Shown here in pieces: positions 5,023-27,771 of a stretch of 64,000 bases of DNA. The DNA comes from an uncultured Actinomycetes bacterium. Its GTDB lineage: Bacteria > Actinomycetota > Acidimicrobiia > IMCC26256 > DASPTH01. The notes beneath the pieces were generated by a model. The model did not search any database. It was not told the DNA's origin and was given only the letters and a program-made list of their open reading frames with translations. The stretch lies in assembly GCA_963697125.1 (NCBI GenBank), contig CAVOMW010000006.1, forward strand, positions 79,354-143,353, read 5' to 3'. A program made the translations under genes and the position numbers. Position 1 is the stretch's first letter. Each line of letters opens with the position of its first letter.

Positions 5023-5756
5023 CTAGAAGGCTCAGTCGGCGTCGTGGCGGATGCTGCGGCGCCTCGCTTGCGGCGCTTGAAGATCGAGCGGACCGCCACC
5101 ACCACGACCAGTCCGGCCACGATCGGCACCAGCCGCTTCCCCACCGAACCACCGGCCGCGTCCATGAGGTCGATGGGCTCGGCCTCCTTGGAGTCGATCT
5201 TGCGAACCCCGGCCGCCTCTCTGGCGCCTCCGTCCGTCGGCGCAGCGCCCGCGTCCTCGGGACTCTCCGCCGCTGGCGGCGCGATCGTCGGTTCGGTGGG
5301 AGTCTCCGATCCCGACAGCACGTCCTTCTTGAGGTTGTCGGCGAACTGGCCGAGCAGCTTGCTCGACACGTCGGCCATCACGCCTCGGCCGAACTGCGCC
5401 ACCTTGCCGGTGATGTTGAGGTCGGTGTCGATGTTGACGGTGGTCGCGGCGTCGCCGTCGGCCACCAGCGTGGCGACGACGGTCGCCGACGCGTTGCCCT
5501 GCCCGCGGGTGTCGCGGCCCTCGGCCTGCAGCACCACCTTGCGGTTGGCCTCGTCGGCCTCCTCGATCTTGGCCACGCCCTTGTACTGCGCGGTGATGGG
5601 ACCGACCTTGATCTTCACCGTCCCGCGGTACTCGTCGCCCTCCACCTCGGTGAGCTGCGCGCCGGGGAGGCAGGGGGCGATGCGCTCGAGGTCGAGGAGC
5701 ACCTTCCAGGCCTCGTCGACGGGTACTTCCACCCGGAAGCTGTCTTCGATCTTCAC
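5023..5756 (-). CDS. SRPBCC/CoxG-family protein with C-terminal TM anchor
   Basis: First ~245 aa of ORF 4251..5756: FRVEVPVDEAWKVLLDLERIAPCLPGA..GTVKIKVGPI..ITGKVAQFGRGVMADVSSKLLGQFADNL, then TM LVPIVAGLVVVVAV. The listed frame reads through into ruvC. TAG 5025-5023 and TGA 5034-5032 lie in the other frames, so the 3' end is approximate. Confidence 0.7.
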
Positions 5757-6379
5757 TGGTCCTCCTGCTGCAGTCGTTCGAGGTCTTCGAGGGTGTCGAC
5801 GTCGGCGGCGCTGCCCGTGTCGGTGCAGTCGATCCGGACGGCACGATCCCGGGCCAGCGCCCGGGCGCCCACGTCGCCGCGGAGCTCCAACGCTTCAGGC
5901 CAGAGGCTACGCGCCAGCTTGACCGGATTGCCGGGCTGCCCGCGTACGTCGGGACCACGAGATCCCCACTGGTCGCCGCGACTCGCGCGGTAGGCCTCGG
6001 CGCTCACGCGGGGCTGGTCGGCCAGGCCCACGCACACGGCGTCGACGTCGGCGCGGGGGATGAGCGTCGTCAGCACCGCACGCAGACTCGACGCGATCCC
6101 CTCTTCCCACTGCGGGTTCTCGACCACTTCCACCGCGACCATCTCGGAGTTGACCCCCACATGCGTACGCGAACTTTGAGATGTTCGGGAGAGCGCGGCG
6201 CGGACCTCGTCGCCGCGGTACCCGACGACCACGAGCACGGGCCGGAGTCCGGAGTCGCGCGCGGCGTCCACCGCCCACGCGACCAGCGGTCTCCCCCGCC
6301 ACTCGAGCAACGGCTTCGACGCGTCACCGCCGAGTCGCGACCCACGACCGGCGGCGAGGACGGCAACGGCGACGCTCAA
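5753..6379 (-). CDS. MobA/MocA-like nucleotidyltransferase (molybdenum cofactor cytidylyltransferase family) carrying an in-frame 16-codon repeat insertion
   Basis: Intact 208-aa ORF: AVLAAGRGSRLG (NTP-binding loop), VVVGYRGDEV, VENPQWEEGIASSL, GLADQP. ATGA overlap with the coxG-like gene. Confidence 0.75.
   Translation of the reverse strand: MSVAVAVLAAGRGSRLGGDASKPLLEWRGRPLVAWAVDAARDSGLRPVLVVVGYRGDEVRAALSRTSQSSRTHVGVNSEMVAVEVVENPQWEEGIASSLRAVLTTLIPRADVDAVCVGLADQPRVSAEAYRASRGDQWGSRGPDVRGQPGNPVKLARSLWPEALELRGDVGARALARDRAVRIDCTDTGSAADVDTLEDLERLQQEDQ
6140..6188 (+). repeat. 49-nt palindromic repeat, copy 1 (inside the mocA-like CDS)
   Basis: catctcggagttgacccccacatgcgtacgcgaactttgagatgttcgg. 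43/49 identical to the reverse complement of 23207-23255 and 39/49 identical to 24193-24241. Arms CATCTCGGAGTT/AACTTTGAGATG can pair (12 bp including G-U). Confidence 0.85.
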
Positions 6380-22513: not shown

Positions 22514-23176
22514 TCATGTCGCGCGGGGTCCGACGCCTTCGATGCGGAGCGATCCCTCGCCCTTGTGCCGGAGGTTGACGGTGAGCAGCGCCGCCGAGAA
22601 GGTCTCGAGGCCGATCGCGTTCTCGAGCGTGCCGGCGTCGAAGGCCCGCAGGTCGGGGATGGCGTCGACGAGGTCGAGGACGGTCGTGCGGCCCTCGTCG
22701 TCGCCGACGACGAGGACGTCTCCCTTGAGCGGTTGGCTGATGTCGGCGAGCGCGGCGGCGGGGACCAGGTGGAACGCAGCCACCACGTACGCCGCGGGCG
22801 CCACCGCCTTCACCTCGGCCGCGATCGAGCCCGCGGGCGACGGTACGGGTACGAACTGACGGCCCCGCTTCTCCAGGCCGTTGGCCATGGAGATGACGAT
22901 CTTGCCGGCGAGCTGGTCGGCGTGGGCCTTCGCCGTCGGGACCGCGGCGTCCCAGACGGTGGCGAGCACCACCAGGTCGGCAGCGGCGGCGTCGTGGTTG
23001 CTACCGGGCTCGAGGCCGGCCACCCGGTCACCCCAGCGAGCACGGACCTCGTCGACGACCTGGGCCGCGCGTTCCCGGTCGCGCGACCCCACGGTCACGC
23101 GGTGACCGGTCGCGGCCAGCCGGGTGGCGATTCCCCGCCCGGCCGGTCCAGTCCCCCCCAACACGCCGATGTGCAT
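22514..23176 (-). CDS. npdG: NADPH-dependent F420 reductase
   Basis: Intact 220-aa ORF: MHIGVLGGTGPAGRGIATRLA (Rossmann), VGSRDRERA, and the C-terminal dimerisation region typical of Fno/NpdG. Confidence 0.8.
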   Translation of the reverse strand: MHIGVLGGTGPAGRGIATRLAATGHRVTVGSRDRERAAQVVDEVRARWGDRVAGLEPGSNHDAAAADLVVLATVWDAAVPTAKAHADQLAGKIVISMANGLEKRGRQFVPVPSPAGSIAAEVKAVAPAAYVVAAFHLVPAAALADISQPLKGDVLVVGDDEGRTTVLDLVDAIPDLRAFDAGTLENAIGLETFSAALLTVNLRHKGEGSLRIEGVGPRAT

Positions 23177-23206
23177 GCCCGAGAGCTTCGCACATGGCCG
23201 CGACCA

Positions 23207-23255
23207 CCGAACATCTCAGGATGCACGTACGCATGTGGGGGTCAAGTCCGAGATG
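23207..23255 (-). repeat. 49-nt palindromic repeat, copy 2 (left terminal inverted repeat of the DUF559 cassette)
   Basis: The reverse complement is catctcggacttgacccccacatgcgtacgtgcatcctgagatgttcgg, 43/49 identical to copy 1 including an exact 20-nt core. It lies in the npdG/DUF559 divergent spacer. Confidence 0.85.
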
Positions 23256-23300
23256 CTCGCGGGGGTGTGACTCTCCGGCGACCGCTGCGTCAGTTCCTCG

Positions 23301-24206
23301 GTGACCACTTCGTCCCTCTTCGACCTCGCCCGCCGCCAACACGGGCTGATCACGCGCCAGCAGGCGCTCATGGCGGTGTCGGCCAACACACTCGATCGGC
23401 GGATCAGAGCCCGACTCCTGGAACCCGTGCGGCGAGGGGTGTACCGCCTGGGAGGAGTCCCCGAGACCTGGGAGCAGCAACTGCTCGCGGTGTGCTTGTC
23501 CGCAGGACCGGAGGTTTGTGCATCCTTCAGATCAGCCGCCGCGCTGGACTCGTTCGAAGGATTCCCACGCGAAGGGCTGGAGGTCACGCACTTCGGGAGT
23601 CGGCCGTCGGCGATCGAGGGCGTCGTCGTGCACGAGTCGGCGGTGTTCGACCCCAGGCACCTGAGGCGAGTCGCTGGCATCCCGACGACATCGGTCGCAC
23701 GCACCCTGTGCGACCTCACCGCCGTCGTGCCGAAGTGGACCGTCGAACGTGCCGTCGACGAAGCGTTGCGGCGCAAGATCGTGCGGCTCGGCGACATCGT
23801 CGCGGTCGCTGAGCTCCTCGAAGGCCGAGGACGACTCCGGTGCACGGTGATGCGCGAGATCCTCGAGCACAGGCGGCCCGGCTACGAACCCGGCGACAGC
23901 GACCCGGAGCGGCGGATCGCGGAACTGCTGGTCCGAGCCGGTCTCCCCGAGCCCACCAGGCAGCACCGCGTCGAGATCGGGGGACGCCGATTTCGGATCG
24001 ATCTCTGCTACCCCGAGTTCAAGATCGCGATCGAGTACGACGGATGGGAGTGGCACTCGGGGCGTCGAGCCTTCGATGAAGACCGTGCACGCGCGAATCA
24101 GCTCGTGGTGCTGGGCTTCGCGGTGCTGCGCTTCACCTCGAAGTCGACCGAGCAGTCGATCGTCGATACGGTGAGCGCCGCGATCGAGCGAGCATCGCGG
24201 GGATGA
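23301..24206 (+). CDS. AbiEi-like wHTH / DUF559 (Vsr-like endonuclease fold) domain protein
   Basis: Intact 301-aa ORF. N-terminus LARRQHGLITRQQALMAVSANTLDRRIRARLLEPVRRGVYRLGG. C-terminus ERRIAELLVRAGLPEPTRQHRVEIGGRRFRIDLCYPEFKIAIEYDGWEWH..ARANQLVVLGFAVLRF (DUF559 signature). Confidence 0.8.
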   Translation: MTTSSLFDLARRQHGLITRQQALMAVSANTLDRRIRARLLEPVRRGVYRLGGVPETWEQQLLAVCLSAGPEVCASFRSAAALDSFEGFPREGLEVTHFGSRPSAIEGVVVHESAVFDPRHLRRVAGIPTTSVARTLCDLTAVVPKWTVERAVDEALRRKIVRLGDIVAVAELLEGRGRLRCTVMREILEHRRPGYEPGDSDPERRIAELLVRAGLPEPTRQHRVEIGGRRFRIDLCYPEFKIAIEYDGWEWHSGRRAFDEDRARANQLVVLGFAVLRFTSKSTEQSIVDTVSAAIERASRG

Positions 24207-24241
24207 CCCCCATATACGTACGTCAACTCTGAGATGCTCGC
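24193..24241 (+). repeat. 49-nt palindromic repeat, copy 3 (right terminal inverted repeat of the DUF559 cassette)
   Basis: catcgcggggatgacccccatatacgtacgtcaactctgagatgctcgc, 39/49 identical to copy 1. It overlaps the DUF559 stop (24204-24206) and ends 3 nt before the dnaE stop. Confidence 0.8.
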
Positions 24242-24243
24242 TC

Positions 24244-27200
24244 TCAGGTGATGCAGTCGGCGCCGAGGAGGATGCGGAGCTCGGCGTAGAGGCCGGTGCC
24301 GGCGTCGACGAGGTGGTCGTCGCCGAGGCGCAGGACGGTGGTCTTCTCCGGGCTCTCGAGGTGCACGTAGACCGGGCTGTCGCCGGGGTGCTCGGAGAGG
24401 ATGTTCTTCAGCTGGCCGACCTTGGCGTCGGAGAGCAGGTTGAGCTTCACCTTCACCCGCACCGGCGGCCCGGTGTCGACCGACAGCTCGGGGCGCACGA
24501 CCTCCATGGCGATGATCTTGGGCTGGTCCTCGCGGACGTCGAGGCGACCCTTGATCACGACGATGGCGTCGTCCTCGAGGAGATGGCCGTACTGCTCCAT
24601 CGTCTTCGGGAACACCATCACCTCGAGCGCGGCCCCGAGGTCCTCGAGCGTGAACGTGGCCATGAGGTCGCCGCGCTTGGTGTAGCGGCGGTTGAGCGCG
24701 GTGACGATGCCGCCGACCGTGCGCATCTCACCCTCACGACTGTCGCGCAGCTCGGCGAGCGTGCCGTCGGTGTACTTCCGCAGCGCACGTTCGGCGCCCA
24801 TCATCGGGTGGTCGCTCACGTAGAGGCCGAGCATCTCCTTCTCGAACGTGAGTCGTTGCGACTTCGGGAACTCGGTGTCGGGGATGTCGGTGCGGTGGCC
24901 GACCACCGACTCGGGCGCGGGATCGTCGACGGCGGAGAAGAGGTCGAACTGACCTTCGGCCTCGTTGCGACGACGGCCGAGCACGGTCTCGATGATGGTC
25001 TCGTGCACGAACACGAGCCCCTGGCGCGGGTGGCCGAGCGAGTCGAACGCGCCCGCCTTCGCCAGTGACTCCACGCAGCGCTTGTTGAGCACCGACGGGT
25101 CGACCCGGTCGCAGAAGTCGTAGAAGTCGGTGAACGGGCCGCCCTCCTCGCGCGCCGCGACGATGTGCGCGACCACGCCTTCGCCCACGTTGCGGACCGC
25201 GGAGAGCCCGAACCGGATGGCACTCCCCCGGTCGGGGTGGGTGCGCACCGAGAAGTCGGAGACCGACTCGTTGACGTCGGGGACGAGCACCTCGATGCCC
25301 ATCTGCCGGCACTCGTTGAGGAAGACCGCGGTCTGGTCCTTGTTGGTCTTGACCGAGGTGAGCAGCGCGGCGAAGTACTCGGGCGGGTAGTTCGCCTTGA
25401 GCCACGCGGTCTGGTACGTGACGTAGCCGTAGCCGAACGAGTGCGACTTGTTGAACGAGTAGTCGGCGAACGGCTCGATCATGTCGAAGAAGTCGTTGCC
25501 GAACGCCTCGGTGTGCCCGTTGGCGACGCACCCCTCGACGAACTTCGTGCGCTCCTTGGCGATGAGGGCGCGGATCTTCTTGCCGGTGGCCTTGCGGAGG
25601 TTGTCGGCCTCCTCCAGCGAGTAGCCGGCGAGCCGCTGCGCGACGCGCATCAGCTGCTCCTGGTAGATCATCAACCCGTAGGTGGGCTCGAGCACCTCGC
25701 GCAGGTCCTCGTGGGGGTAGCTGACCGGCTTGCGACCGTTCTTGCGGTCGGCGTACTCGTTGTGCCAGTTCTGCGCCATCGGACCCGGGCGGTACAGGGC
25801 GATGAGCGCGGCGACGTCTTCGAACTCGGTGGGCGCGAGCGAACGCAGCAGCGCGCGCATGGGTCCGCCTTCGAGCTGGAACACGCCCACGGTGTCGCCG
25901 CGGCGGAGCAGGTCGAACGTGGCCGGGTCGTCGAGGGGGACGCGGTCGATGTCGGGGCGGGCGCCGGTGTTCTCGGCGATGAGGTCGAGCGCGATCTCGA
26001 GGACGTCGAGGTTGCGCAGCCCCAGGAAGTCCATCTTGAGCAGGCCGAGGTCTTCGACCCCGTGCATCTCGTACTGGGTGACGATCGGCGCGTCCTCGAT
26101 GCGGCCCCCGGCTTCGGGCTTGCGCTGGATCGGGAGGTACTCGGTGAGCGGATCGCGCGTGATGACGACGGCGGCGGCGTGGATGCCGTCCTGGCGGCGG
26201 AGGCCTTCGAGGCCGCGGGCGACGTCGATGACGCGCTTGGCGTCGGGATCGGACTCGTAGAGCGTGCGCAGCTCGGTGGCCATCTTGTAGCCGTCTTCGT
26301 GGCCGGTGACCTTCTCGAAGCACGCGCGCAGCGGCGTGTCGCGACCCATGATCAGCGGCGGCATGAGCTTCGCGATCCGGTCGCCGATGAGGTACGGGTA
26401 GCCGAGCACGCGCGCGGAGTCGCGCACCGCGGCACGCGCCTTGATGGTGGAGAAGGTGACGATCTGCGCGACGTGGTCCCACCCGTAGCGCTCGGCGGCG
26501 TACTTGATCATCTCGCCGCGGTAGCGAGAGTCGAAGTCCATGTCGATGTCGGGCATCTGCTTGCGGCCGGGGTTGAGGAACCGCTCGAACAGCAGGTCGT
26601 ACTTGATCGGGTCGATGTCGACGATGCGCAGGCAGTAGGCGACGCAGGACCCCGCCGCACTCCCCCGGCCCGGCCCGACGCGGATGCCCCGCGAGCGCGC
26701 GTAGCGCACGAGGTCCCACACGATCAGGAAGTACGCCGAGAACCCCATCGTCTTGATGACGCCGAGCTCGAACTCGATGCGCTCGAGCACCTCCGGCCCG
26801 GGCGAGATCCCGTAGCGCTCCTTCGCTCCCTCGATGCACAGCTCGCGGAGGAACGAGTCTTCGTCGTGCCCGGGAGGCGTGGGGAACGACGGGAGCACCG
26901 CGTTGCCGAACTCGATCTCGACCGCGGCGCGCTCGGCGATGAGCAGCGTGTTGTCGCACGCCTCCTCGTAGTCGGAGAACAGCGCGCGCATCTCCGACGC
27001 GGTCTTGAGGTAGAACTCGTCGGCGTCGAACTTGAAGCGCTTCGGGTCGGACTGCAGCGCGCCGGTCTGCACGCACAGCAGCGCGTCGTGCGACTCGGCG
27101 TCGTGGCGATGCGTGTAGTGCGAGTCGTTCGTCGCCAGCAACGGTGCGCGCATGTCGCGCGCGAGCTTGATCAGCTGCGGATTGACCTGCAGCTGCTCGG

Positions 27201-27771
27201 GGAGCCCGTGGTCCTGCAGCTCGACGAAGAACGAGTCGCGACCGAAGATCGACTGGAAGCGCTCGACGTGCTGCTGCGCGAGCGTGTAGTTGCCCTCGAG
27301 GATGGCCTGCGACACCGCGCCGCCCAGGCAGCCGGTGGTGCCGACGAGACCCTCGTGGTGCTGCTCGAGCAGGTCGAAGTCGACGCGGGGCTTCTGGAAG
27401 AAGCCGTCGAGGTACGCGCCCGACGACACCTTGATGAGGTTCTTGTACCCCTGCGTCGACTCGGCGAGGAGCGTGAGGTGGTAGATGTCGTGCTCGTCAC
27501 GCCGCGGGCGATCGTGACGCGACGTGGTGACCATGTACGCCTCGGTGCCGATGACCGGCGTGAGGTCGAGGTCGCGCGCGGCGCGGTAGAAGTCGAGGAC
27601 GCCGTACATGTTCCCGTGGTCGGTGATGCCCACCGCGGGCTGGCCGTCGGCCGCGGCCGTGGCCACCACCTCGGCGATCCGCGCAGCACCGTCGAGCATC
27701 GAGAACTCGGTGTGCAGGTGGAGGTGGACGAACGACTTGGCCAACGATGCCCTTATCCACACGTCCTCCAC
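24244..27771 (-). CDS. dnaE: DNA polymerase III alpha subunit (DnaE1 type)
   Basis: Intact 1175-aa ORF: PHP domain FVHLHLHTEFSMLDGA, palm GPGRGSAAGS..DIDMDF, OB fold, C-terminal tau-binding region. The start may be GTG 27771 or TTG 27744 (after AAGGG). Confidence 0.97.
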   Translation of the reverse strand: MEDVWIRASLAKSFVHLHLHTEFSMLDGAARIAEVVATAAADGQPAVGITDHGNMYGVLDFYRAARDLDLTPVIGTEAYMVTTSRHDRPRRDEHDIYHLTLLAESTQGYKNLIKVSSGAYLDGFFQKPRVDFDLLEQHHEGLVGTTGCLGGAVSQAILEGNYTLAQQHVERFQSIFGRDSFFVELQDHGLPEQLQVNPQLIKLARDMRAPLLATNDSHYTHRHDAESHDALLCVQTGALQSDPKRFKFDADEFYLKTASEMRALFSDYEEACDNTLLIAERAAVEIEFGNAVLPSFPTPPGHDEDSFLRELCIEGAKERYGISPGPEVLERIEFELGVIKTMGFSAYFLIVWDLVRYARSRGIRVGPGRGSAAGSCVAYCLRIVDIDPIKYDLLFERFLNPGRKQMPDIDMDFDSRYRGEMIKYAAERYGWDHVAQIVTFSTIKARAAVRDSARVLGYPYLIGDRIAKLMPPLIMGRDTPLRACFEKVTGHEDGYKMATELRTLYESDPDAKRVIDVARGLEGLRRQDGIHAAAVVITRDPLTEYLPIQRKPEAGGRIEDAPIVTQYEMHGVEDLGLLKMDFLGLRNLDVLEIALDLIAENTGARPDIDRVPLDDPATFDLLRRGDTVGVFQLEGGPMRALLRSLAPTEFEDVAALIALYRPGPMAQNWHNEYADRKNGRKPVSYPHEDLREVLEPTYGLMIYQEQLMRVAQRLAGYSLEEADNLRKATGKKIRALIAKERTKFVEGCVANGHTEAFGNDFFDMIEPFADYSFNKSHSFGYGYVTYQTAWLKANYPPEYFAALLTSVKTNKDQTAVFLNECRQMGIEVLVPDVNESVSDFSVRTHPDRGSAIRFGLSAVRNVGEGVVAHIVAAREEGGPFTDFYDFCDRVDPSVLNKRCVESLAKAGAFDSLGHPRQGLVFVHETIIETVLGRRRNEAEGQFDLFSAVDDPAPESVVGHRTDIPDTEFPKSQRLTFEKEMLGLYVSDHPMMGAERALRKYTDGTLAELRDSREGEMRTVGGIVTALNRRYTKRGDLMATFTLEDLGAALEVMVFPKTMEQYGHLLEDDAIVVIKGRLDVREDQPKIIAMEVVRPELSVDTGPPVRVKVKLNLLSDAKVGQLKNILSEHPGDSPVYVHLESPEKTTVLRLGDDHLVDAGTGLYAELRILLGADCIT

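What the first reader, a model, noticed from the sequence alone, without database searches (positions are those of the whole stretch)
23207..24241. Single DUF559/AbiEi-like gene bracketed by 49-bp terminal inverted repeats, wedged between npdG and dnaE
A 49-nt sequence at 23207-23255 and an inverted partner at 24193-24241 flank exactly one gene (23301..24206). That gene has an AbiEi-like wHTH N-terminus and a DUF559/Vsr-like nuclease-fold C-terminus. Both repeats have the TGACCCCC end facing the gene, so they are true terminal inverted repeats rather than a direct duplication. The right repeat overlaps the gene's stop codon.

The 1035-bp unit fills the whole spacer between two core genes: the npdG start at 23176 and the dnaE stop at 24244. 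By eye its codons are less GC3-biased (aga, tca, gga, tgt, gaa) than those of its neighbours.

DUF559 genes are multi-copy and patchily distributed in actinobacteria. I know of no described TIR-bounded mobile unit for them, so this could be a minimal nuclease-associated mobile cassette. Alternatively, the hairpins could be operators or bidirectional terminators for the gene.
Basis: partly seen in the sequence, partly recalled or inferred. Interest (0 to 1): 0.7.

Follow-up and report, generated by a model that had tools for sequence, protein, structure and literature searches.

The report
Nuclease gene bracketed by matching palindromes
A gene for a DNA-binding nuclease sits between two inverted copies of a 55-base hairpin-forming palindrome, the same three-part unit appears at other genomic places in related bacteria, and lone copies of the palindrome occur elsewhere, so this looks like an undescribed protein-plus-cognate-site module rather than a jumping cassette.

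Summary
Arms 23208-23260 and 24188-24240 are 79% complementary and bracket one gene (23301-24206) that fills the npdG-dnaE spacer.

Three things change the picture:
- Each arm is itself a hairpin-forming palindrome. A third, solo copy (6134-6189) is a 51-nt in-frame insertion in mocA that many orthologues lack. Five more solo copies in other genomes have no DUF559 gene nearby.
- In five related Acidimicrobiia-like genomes the gene sits at the same place with a hairpin on each side. Stems differ between genomes but match within each genome.
- Two roughly 50%-identical family members at two other genomic contexts are also bracketed by their own inverted hairpin pair. In all seven loci checked the stop codon lies inside the downstream hairpin.

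The protein is an entire AbiEi-like DNA-binding region fused to a Vsr/EDxHD-type nuclease domain.

Best reading: this is a conserved hairpin-gene-hairpin module whose palindromes are the protein's cognate sites, with the upstream one an AbiEi-style autoregulatory operator. It is fixed in this lineage and is not a currently mobile cassette. A REP/RAYT-like relationship remains possible. I found no prior description.

The parts
23208..23260 (-). Upstream palindromic hairpin element (U). Its TTGACCCCC loop orientation reads on the minus strand. It lies 40 nt upstream of the gene's GTG start and 31 nt upstream of the divergent npdG start.
   Evidence: The covariance model scores it 68.4 bits. A hairpin occupies the same position in L011-L015.
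23301..24206 (+). Gene for a 301-aa protein: an AbiEi-like wHTH plus AbiEi C-terminal domain (about residues 1-200), fused to a Vsr/DUF559/MTES_1575-type nuclease domain (about residues 200-300).
   Evidence: Pfam. PADLOC AbiEi, E 7.5e-25. AlphaFold2 model with pLDDT 85.7. Foldseek hits to 6y8q AbiEi and to 3r3p, the I-Bth0305I catalytic domain. Invariant D234, E245, D247, H252 and D261 in 55 homologues.
24188..24240 (+). Downstream palindromic hairpin element (D). Its 5' arm encodes the last residues (R-A-S-R-G) and the TGA stop of the gene. It ends 3 nt before the dnaE stop codon.
   Evidence: (-38.6 kcal/mol, z -3.9). The covariance model scores it 61.5 bits. C-terminal R[AT][SC]xx tails occur in 79 of 120 homologues.
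6134..6189 (+). Solo copy of the same element. It is a 51-nt in-frame insertion in mocA (ORF 5753-6379, minus strand) and encodes RTSQSSRTHVGVNSEM.
   Evidence: nhmmer E 1e-18. Covariance model 77.3 bits. The insert is present in about half of 120 MocA orthologues and absent in the rest. Filled and empty alleles were compared at the DNA level.
22514..23176 (-). npdG (NADPH-dependent F420 reductase), the left neighbour, divergent from the gene.
   Evidence: TIGR01915, 161.5 bits.
24244..27771 (-). dnaE (DNA polymerase III alpha), the right neighbour, convergent with the gene.
   Evidence: Pfam.

Best explanation
The two 'terminal inverted repeats' are two copies of a roughly 55-bp palindrome. 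This palindrome is the cognate cis-element of the gene it brackets.

The gene encodes a complete AbiEi-like DNA-binding unit (wHTH plus AbiEi C-terminal domain) fused to a Vsr/EDxHD-type PD-(D/E)XK nuclease. The three parts form one module, hairpin-gene-hairpin, which is a family-level architecture.

What is shown:
- The module is conserved.
- The two hairpins of a genome evolve in concert.
- Their stems show compensatory change between genomes.
- The stop codon is always embedded in the downstream hairpin.
- In the window's lineage the module is a fixed, vertically inherited resident of the npdG-dnaE spacer.

What is inferred:
- The protein binds the two arms of the palindrome through its wHTH, as AbiEi binds inverted repeats in its own promoter.
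- The upstream copy, which lies roughly 10-40 nt before the annotated start codon where one could be placed, therefore acts as an autoregulatory operator.
- The downstream copy acts as a second binding site, a 3'-end structure, or both, keeping a potentially toxic nuclease tightly controlled.

Rare solo copies elsewhere are either products of the palindrome being copied or scars left when the gene was lost. Loss could occur by recombination between the directly repeated arms of the two hairpins. The mocA insertion and the copies at gene 3' ends in other genomes are examples of such solo copies.
For: Module conservation:
- Six of six genomes at the npdG-dnaE site have both hairpins.
- L018 and L019, at other contexts, have arms of 56 nt (82% complementary) and 63 nt (79% complementary), and each arm is a hairpin.

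Structure:
- On 19 copies, 84.8% of cells are paired, against 28-40% when the partners are slid.
- 13 of 19 pairs show changes on both sides, and 0 of 500 shuffles reach the observed score.

Concerted evolution:
- Stems and loops are genome-specific but shared by U and D. Examples are the window loop TTGACCCCC and the stems L013 CATCCGTCAG and L014 CATGTGKCG. In L012 the two copies are 100% identical over 40 nt.

Stop codon inside D:
- This holds in 7 of 7 loci checked.
- Protein tails act as a proxy. 79 of 120 orthogroup members end in R[AT][SC]xx. 65 of 108 outgroup members end in M or K, against backgrounds of 1.5% and 1.3%.

Protein:
- PADLOC AbiEi, E 7.5e-25, over residues 4-169.
- Foldseek hit to 6y8q AbiEi, TM 0.69 over about 200 residues, and to 3r3p, TM 0.64.
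- Catalytic-type residues are invariant.
- AbiEi-family proteins autoregulate through inverted repeats in their promoters (PMC7319586).
Against: - No binding or expression data exist.
- The downstream copy is not required by a simple operator model.
- The solo copies are mostly at 3' ends of convergent genes or inside a coding region, which are odd places for regulatory sites.
- Covariation of a palindrome cannot tell a dsDNA dyad site from an extruded or transcribed hairpin. G-T versus A-C counts (26 versus 18) give no clear strand preference.
- Only 8 module loci from 3 lineages were examined, out of a family of more than 21,000 clusters.
Confidence: 0.5

Rival explanations
1. REP/RAYT-like system. 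The nuclease is a domesticated, single-copy, vertically inherited enzyme that recognises its flanking palindromes. It disperses or maintains solo copies of them around the genome, as RAYT transposases are thought to do for REP/REPIN sequences, but with a wHTH-PD-(D/E)XK nuclease in place of an HUH tyrosine transposase.
For: - The gene has no second copy in the 64-kb window and is flanked by inverted palindromes. It is vertically inherited in 6 of 6 genomes.
- The repeat type is specific to each genome and shared with its solo copy. The window's U, D and C all have the TTGACCCCCAYATRCGTACG loop.
- There are solo copies at six different non-orthologous sites.
- One of them is a presence/absence insertion.
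- These features mirror the RAYT features listed in PMC3337134.
Against: - Copy number is very low. There is 1 solo in the 64-kb window and none in about 130 kb of relatives. Only 2 exact-loop copies were found in one reference MAG.
- The mocA solo is old and inherited, not recent.
- No mechanism is known by which a Vsr-type nuclease would copy a 51-nt palindrome.
- The search for solos was biased towards the window's loop type.
Confidence: 0.2
2. One reading: a minimal, currently mobile cassette bounded by terminal inverted repeats, with the DUF559 nuclease acting as its mobilising enzyme.
For: - The same gene-plus-inverted-hairpin unit is found in three unrelated genomic contexts across the family.
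- In L018 and L019 the inverted repeat extends 7-17 nt beyond the hairpin on the outer sides.
- The gene has a slightly low GC3.
- It diverges faster than its neighbours: 58-73% aa identity, against 90-93% for CysS.
Against: - The position is identical in 6 of 6 genomes.
- There is no second copy in the window.
- No target-site duplication is visible.
- There is no DDE, HUH or serine/tyrosine recombinase.
- PD-(D/E)XK nucleases are not known to carry out strand transfer on their own (established knowledge; compare TnsA, which needs TnsB).
- No empty site was found.
Confidence: 0.1
3. The hairpins act purely in cis as RNA or DNA structures (3'-end stabiliser, terminator or insulator) and have no relationship to the encoded protein. 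Solo copies are ordinary REP-like intergenic hairpins.
For: - The downstream hairpin folds better on the sense strand in 5 of 6 orthologous loci.
- The window's D has z -3.9.
- Most solos lie just after stop codons between convergent genes.
Against: - The upstream copy lies between divergent genes, where a terminator is not needed.
- There is no T-run.
- U shows no stability excess over shuffles (z +0.3 and -0.3).
- Concerted evolution of U and D, and their co-occurrence with this gene family at three different contexts, is not explained.
- There is no Rfam match.
Confidence: 0.12
4. Free-standing homing-endonuclease-like selfish gene. The nuclease cuts palindrome-containing sites that lack the gene, and repair copies the gene in.
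For: - The closest solved nuclease fold is the homing endonuclease I-Bth0305I (PMC3239194).
- There is a weak PADLOC 'homing endonuclease' hit.
- The gene and the adjacent npdG are more diverged than the surrounding genes.
Against: - Both flanks carry complete palindromes rather than the two halves of a split target.
- No gene presence/absence polymorphism appears in 6 genomes.
- Divergence drops sharply at the dnaE boundary, with no co-conversion gradient.
Confidence: 0.08

Closest known systems
AbiE type IV toxin-antitoxin systems (AbiEi antitoxin autoregulating through inverted repeats in its promoter; PMC7319586, PMC3985639)
   Same: Residues 1-200 are a whole AbiEi: wHTH plus C-terminal domain by sequence (PADLOC, E 7.5e-25) and by fold (6y8q, TM 0.69). 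A dyad-symmetric sequence lies immediately upstream of the gene.
   Different: - There is no AbiEii/DUF1814 nucleotidyltransferase partner. A Vsr-type nuclease is fused to the same polypeptide instead.
- The palindrome is much longer (about 55 bp) and hairpin-capable.
- A second copy overlaps the stop codon.
- Solo copies exist elsewhere.
REP/REPIN-RAYT systems (PMC3337134, PMC3116915)
   Same: The gene has no second copy in the 64-kb window and is vertically inherited. It is flanked by palindromic repeats in inverted orientation. The repeat type is specific to the gene copy of that genome. Dispersed copies lie in intergenic 3' regions.
   Different: - The enzyme is a wHTH-PD-(D/E)XK nuclease, not an HUH/Y1 transposase.
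- Copy number is very low rather than tens to hundreds.
- The units are single 55-nt hairpins with a long conserved loop, not 20-40-nt REPs with a GTAG or CGTC tag.
EDxHD (Vsr-like) homing endonucleases, prototype I-Bth0305I (PMC3239194)
   Same: The nuclease domain is the best structural match (3r3p, 25% identity, TM 0.64). An N-terminal sequence-specific DNA-binding region is joined to a C-terminal Vsr-like catalytic domain.
   Different: - It is not in an intron, an intein or a phage.
- The DNA-binding part is AbiEi-like, not NUMOD/HTH.
- It is fixed at one chromosomal site in all relatives examined.
Rickettsia palindromic elements and other small palindromic insertions that land in frame in coding genes (from my own knowledge, not tested here)
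   Same: The solo copy in mocA is a short palindrome inserted in frame. It is tolerated as an extra peptide segment and inherited by descendants.
   Different: It is 51 nt rather than about 100-150 nt. Copy number is very low. It is linked to a specific protein-coding gene that carries the same palindrome on both sides.

Membership tests
AbiEi (type IV TA antitoxin) | N-terminal wHTH (AbiEi_4) plus AbiEi C-terminal domain | tested here: met
   Pfam AbiEi_4, 31.5 bits against a cutoff of 25. PADLOC AbiEi, E 7.5e-25, residues 4-169 matching profile positions 28-185 of 216. Foldseek 6y8q, E 5.9e-6, target-normalised TM 0.69 over 202 columns.
AbiEi (type IV TA antitoxin) | Bicistronic operon with an AbiEii/DUF1814 nucleotidyltransferase toxin | tested here: not met
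   The neighbours are npdG and dnaE. No DUF1814 gene lies next to the gene in L011-L015, L018 or L019.
AbiEi (type IV TA antitoxin) | Binds inverted repeats in its own promoter and represses transcription | not testable with these tools
   A palindrome lies 40 nt upstream of the start in the window, and roughly 10-25 nt upstream of the annotated start in three of the other loci. Binding itself is only inferred.
Vsr / DUF559 / MTES_1575 PD-(D/E)XK nucleases | Sequence match to the family models | tested here: met
   DUF559 scores 25.3 bits against a cutoff of 20.6. MTES_1575 scores 35.0 bits, just below its cutoff of 38.2. Precomputed PF18741 and PF04480 assignments appear on most homologues.
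Vsr / DUF559 / MTES_1575 PD-(D/E)XK nucleases | Conserved catalytic acidic and histidine residues | tested here: met
   D234, E245, D247, H252 and D261 are invariant in 55 homologues. Their equivalence to Vsr D51/H69/D97 is inferred from the motif, not from superposition.
Vsr / DUF559 / MTES_1575 PD-(D/E)XK nucleases | T:G mismatch nicking coupled to a cognate C5 methyltransferase | not tested
   No methyltransferase gene is adjacent to the gene. No activity data exist.
REP-RAYT / REPIN | Single-copy gene flanked by palindromic repeats in inverted orientation | tested here: met
REP-RAYT / REPIN | The gene encodes an HUH/Y1 (IS200-like) transposase | tested here: not met
   The only families found are AbiEi and DUF559/MTES_1575.
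REP-RAYT / REPIN | Many dispersed copies of the same repeat in the genome | tested here: inconclusive
   There is one solo in 64 kb and none in about 130 kb of relatives. The complete genome was not available.
REP-RAYT / REPIN | Vertical inheritance and a repeat type specific to the cognate gene | tested here: met
   Synteny holds in 6 of 6 genomes. Sequence types are shared within a genome.
TIR-bounded transposon / MITE | Target-site duplication at the outer ends | tested here: not met
   No direct repeat is visible at the outer ends in the window, L018 or L019. There was no empty site to compare against.
TIR-bounded transposon / MITE | Presence/absence or multiple copies of the whole unit | tested here: not met
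   The unit is present at the same site in 6 of 6 genomes. There is no paralogue in the window. Across the wider family, however, the unit occurs in 3 contexts.
Intrinsic terminator | G+C-rich stem with a short loop, followed by a T-run | tested here: not met
   The scan found none in 22900-24500. The loops are about 14-25 nt.
EDxHD homing endonucleases | Residence in an intron or intein, or free-standing in a phage, with polymorphic presence | tested here: not met
   The gene is chromosomal and intergenic, and is fixed in 6 of 6 genomes. Viral contigs hold only relatives of the nuclease domain alone.

The most novel reading that the evidence does not exclude
This would be a second, independent kind of REPIN/RAYT-like partnership. 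A vertically inherited wHTH-Vsr-type nuclease, an AbiEi-nuclease fusion, would co-evolve with a private palindromic repeat that brackets its gene and is seeded at other sites, including in frame inside genes. The module would be general to a very large actinobacterial protein family of more than 21,000 clusters at 50% identity.
Probability: 0.2. Interest if true: 0.85.

Novelty: new variant of a known kind. Interest (0 to 1): 0.66.

Why it matters
AbiEi_4 plus DUF559 proteins are numerous in Actinobacteria. This search found 21,605 clusters at 50% identity with E <= 1e-3. They are annotated only as 'very-short-patch-repair endonuclease' or 'hypothetical protein'.

If these genes really come packaged between two copies of a co-evolving palindrome, with the stop codon built into one of them, three things follow:
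- The family gets a concrete, testable DNA target.
- A function is suggested: a self-regulated, possibly selfish or defensive nuclease.
- There is a new example of a protein gene and a short repeat evolving as a pair.

It also explains practical artefacts:
- Gene callers start or stop these genes, and mocA, wrongly.
- Short-read contigs break exactly at the hairpins.

Tried and rejected
- Rfam at gathering thresholds found nothing in the window.
- The promoter and terminator consensus scan found nothing around the gene.
- Exact look-ups of the window's own proteins failed, so the source genome could not be read beyond the window.
- Genome and metagenome scans with the exact loop motif returned only 5 loci each, because the loop is lineage-specific.
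- The plasmid database held only a DUF559-domain protein. Viral contigs held only relatives of the nuclease domain.
- A profile search against PDB sequences gave no hit. Only the fold search did.
- I tested strand preference through G-T versus A-C mismatches. The result, 26 versus 18, is not decisive.
- I looked for a divergence gradient around the gene as a sign of homing co-conversion. Identity drops only over the gene and npdG and recovers abruptly in dnaE, and other variable genes in the region dip as low.
- dN/dS is 0.16-0.37 with saturated dS, so there is no evidence of positive selection.
- The covariance model found no further solo copies in 290 kb of held DNA.
Full report
OBSERVATION

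The reported inverted repeat exists. The repeat finder gives arms 23208-23260 and 24188-24240, 53 nt long and 79% complementary. The arms bracket the only credible ORF in the spacer, 23301-24206. This ORF lies between npdG (22514-23176, minus strand, TIGR01915) and dnaE (24244-27771, minus strand).

The TGA stop at 24204 is part of the repeat's TGACCCCC motif. A 20-nt core of the repeat, allowing up to 3 mismatches, occurs three times in the window against 0.02 expected.

GC3 of the gene is 0.815. The two neighbours have 0.905 and 0.958, and the window mean is 0.887 +/- 0.045. GC3 is therefore low but within range.

Each arm is itself a stem-loop. The stem is 12-16 bp (GAGCATCTCGGAG...CTCYGAGATGYTC), and the loop of about 24 nt is also conserved (TTGACCCCCAYATRCGTACG..).

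Because each copy is palindromic, the two copies are also partly direct repeats (23241-23260 and 24222-24241, 90% identical).

A third full copy lies at 6134-6189 (nhmmer E 1e-18; 77 bits with the covariance model).

THE REPEAT ALSO OCCURS WITHOUT THE GENE

The third copy sits inside a MocA-type cytidylyltransferase ORF (5753-6379, minus strand). There it encodes RTSQSSRTHVGVNSEM.

I aligned 120 MocA orthologues. About half carry this 16-25-residue insert, in diverged and sometimes partly deleted forms. The rest, 191-197 aa long, lack it cleanly.

At the DNA level the insert is a 51-nt in-frame insertion. It is filled in the window and in L017 and empty in L016. The palindrome was therefore inserted into, or left in, a coding gene and has been inherited since.

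Scans of reference genomes and metagenomes with the loop motif found five further full copies:
- L002, between clpB and purA.
- L003, between a convergent amidohydrolase and an alcohol dehydrogenase, overlapping the stop codon.
- L007, after a prenyltransferase gene.
- L009, between convergent FMN-dehydrogenase and SDR genes.
- L010, between a convergent hydrolase and a cystathionine-synthase-type gene.

None of these has a DUF559 gene nearby.

THE GENE AND BOTH HAIRPINS ARE CONSERVED TOGETHER

The protein has more than 460 homologues, mostly from soil metagenomes and Acidimicrobiia MAGs.

All five orthologues I could place on contigs lie in the same position, cysS-npdG | gene | dnaE. Their identities to the window protein are 73, 68, 63, 61 and 57%. 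All five have a hairpin of about 55 nt on each side.

The stems differ between genomes but match within a genome:
- Window: CATCTCGGAG.
- L013: CATCCGTCAG.
- L014: CATGTGKCG.
- L015: CCGTCAGTA.

In L012 the two copies are 100% identical over 40 nt.

On an alignment of 19 copies, 84.8% of cells pair, against 28-40% when the partners are slid. Thirteen of 19 pairs show changes on both sides, and no shuffle in 500 reaches the observed score. Because these are palindromes, this supports dyad symmetry under selection. It cannot say whether the symmetry acts as duplex DNA, as extruded DNA or as RNA. G-T versus A-C mismatches (26 versus 18) give no clear strand.

These genomes are close relatives: CysS is 90-93% identical. 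The gene is only 58-73% identical, so it is one of the fastest-evolving genes of the region. dN/dS is 0.16-0.37, so the gene is still under purifying selection.

THE ARCHITECTURE REACHES BEYOND THIS ORTHOGROUP

Two family members from a sister group, whose representative P0243 is about 51% identical to the window protein, sit in different genomic contexts:
- L018, after rpsA and a small ORF and before flp/coaE.
- L019, an Acidimicrobiia MAG (GCA_040879835.1), between a VWA-domain gene and hypothetical genes.

Each is bracketed by its own inverted pair. The arms are 56 nt (82% complementary) in L018 and 63 nt (79% complementary) in L019. Each arm is a hairpin: GCATGTGACACTGAGCCACAAC/... in L018 and GAGCAAGTGACG...CGTCACTTGCTC in L019.

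In all seven loci checked, the TGA stop lies inside the 5' arm of the downstream hairpin. This leaves a protein-level footprint:
- 79 of 120 orthogroup members end in R[AT][SC]xx, and 11 more end in the L015-type tail.
- 65 of 108 members of the sister group end in M or K, against backgrounds of 1.5% and 1.3%.

THE PROTEIN

- Pfam finds AbiEi_4 (residues 6-50) and DUF559/MTES_1575 (residues 206-291).
- PADLOC finds AbiEi over residues 4-186 across its best-scoring AbiEi models (best E 7.5e-25 over residues 4-169).
- An AlphaFold2 model (pLDDT 85.7) matches the whole AbiEi antitoxin 6y8q over about 200 residues (TM 0.69). [quoted passage not shown]
- D234, E245, D247, H252 and D261 are invariant in 55 homologues, so the nuclease is probably active.
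- No AbiEii/DUF1814 partner is adjacent in any locus.
- The family is large: 21,605 clusters at 50% identity with E <= 1e-3, and 1,143 with E <= 1e-30.

INTERPRETATION

Shown:
- The hairpin-gene-hairpin unit is a conserved module.
- Its two hairpins evolve in concert.
- It has occupied at least three genomic contexts in the family.
- In the window's lineage it is fixed.
- The palindrome also exists as rare solo copies, one of which is a presence/absence insertion.

Inferred: the palindromes are the protein's binding sites. AbiEi-family proteins bind inverted repeats in their own promoters to autoregulate (PMC7319586). The upstream copy lies 40 nt before the start codon in the window and roughly 10-25 nt before the annotated start in three of the other loci. 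The downstream copy could be a second operator, a 3'-end structure, or both.

A currently active TIR transposon is unlikely, for four reasons:
- Synteny holds in 6 of 6 genomes.
- There is no paralogue in the window.
- I saw no target duplication.
- No recombinase is present.

A classical terminator is also unlikely. There is no T-run, the upstream copy lies between divergent genes, and there is no Rfam family match.

The arrangement resembles REP/RAYT systems in several defining respects (PMC3337134):
- The gene has no second copy in the 64-kb window.
- The flanking palindromes are in inverted orientation.
- The repeat type is private to each genome.
- Inheritance is vertical.

It differs in the enzyme class. 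Copy number also appears very low: one solo in 64 kb here, and none in about 130 kb of relatives.

Solo copies may instead be scars of gene loss, produced by recombination between the directly repeated arms of the two hairpins. This is inference and has not been tested.

NOVELTY

Full-text searches gave nothing relevant:
- DUF559 with inverted repeats returned three unrelated papers.
- DUF559 with AbiEi returned none.
- The Pfam names returned no paper describing such a module.

I therefore rate it as a new variant of known kinds: an AbiEi-type autoregulated module, and a REP/RAYT-like pairing of gene and repeat.

LIMITS

- Only eight module loci from three lineages were read.
- The source genome outside the window could not be accessed.
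- No outgroup lacking the gene was found, so the empty-site test remains open.

Noticed in passing
window 5753-6379 (mocA), insert at about 6135-6187: A 51-nt palindromic insertion is read in frame as 17 extra residues in a MocA-type cytidylyltransferase. About half of 120 orthologues carry it, in diverged or partly deleted forms. The public annotation of this genome (P0124, 161 aa) starts the gene at a later, internal start codon, about 47 residues downstream of the 208-aa ORF's start.
   Followed up: yes
L005 660-692 and L006 1107-1139: A 33-nt stretch is identical to the loop plus the 3' arm of the element (GTGACCCCCACATGCGTACGTCTACTCTGA). It lies inside a trypsin-like protease ORF of a Rubricoccaceae MAG, a different phylum, and in a metagenome contig. 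There is no matching 5' arm. Its origin is unexplained.
   Followed up: partly
L020 and L021 (996-bp Logan contigs): Two independent short-read contigs carrying the L019-type gene begin inside the upstream hairpin and end inside the downstream hairpin. This is what is expected if the inverted repeats break the assembly graph. Many of the metagenome contigs carrying this family are only 1-2 kb long, which is compatible with this.
   Followed up: no
window 22514-24206 compared with L011-L015: Nucleotide identity to relatives falls to 66-79% across the gene and to 72-87% across npdG. cysS, thrS and dnaE stay at 84-96%, with a sharp recovery at the dnaE stop codon.
   Followed up: partly
window 23301 compared with public protein P0001: The public annotation of this genome calls the gene 23 codons short (278 aa, starting at M24). 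Homologue alignment supports the GTG at 23301, because the AbiEi_4 domain begins at residue 6.
   Followed up: yes
L011-L015 (ENA ERZ250394xx/ERZ250395xx assemblies): dnaE, thrS and other long genes are split into two or three called ORFs in these contigs. These are probably frameshift errors of the assemblies, so gene lengths and some start or stop positions in these loci should be used with care.
   Followed up: no
L018 1281-1889: A phage-integrase-family gene fragment lies about 8 kb upstream of the L018 module. Whether that module sits in an integrated element was not examined.
   Followed up: no
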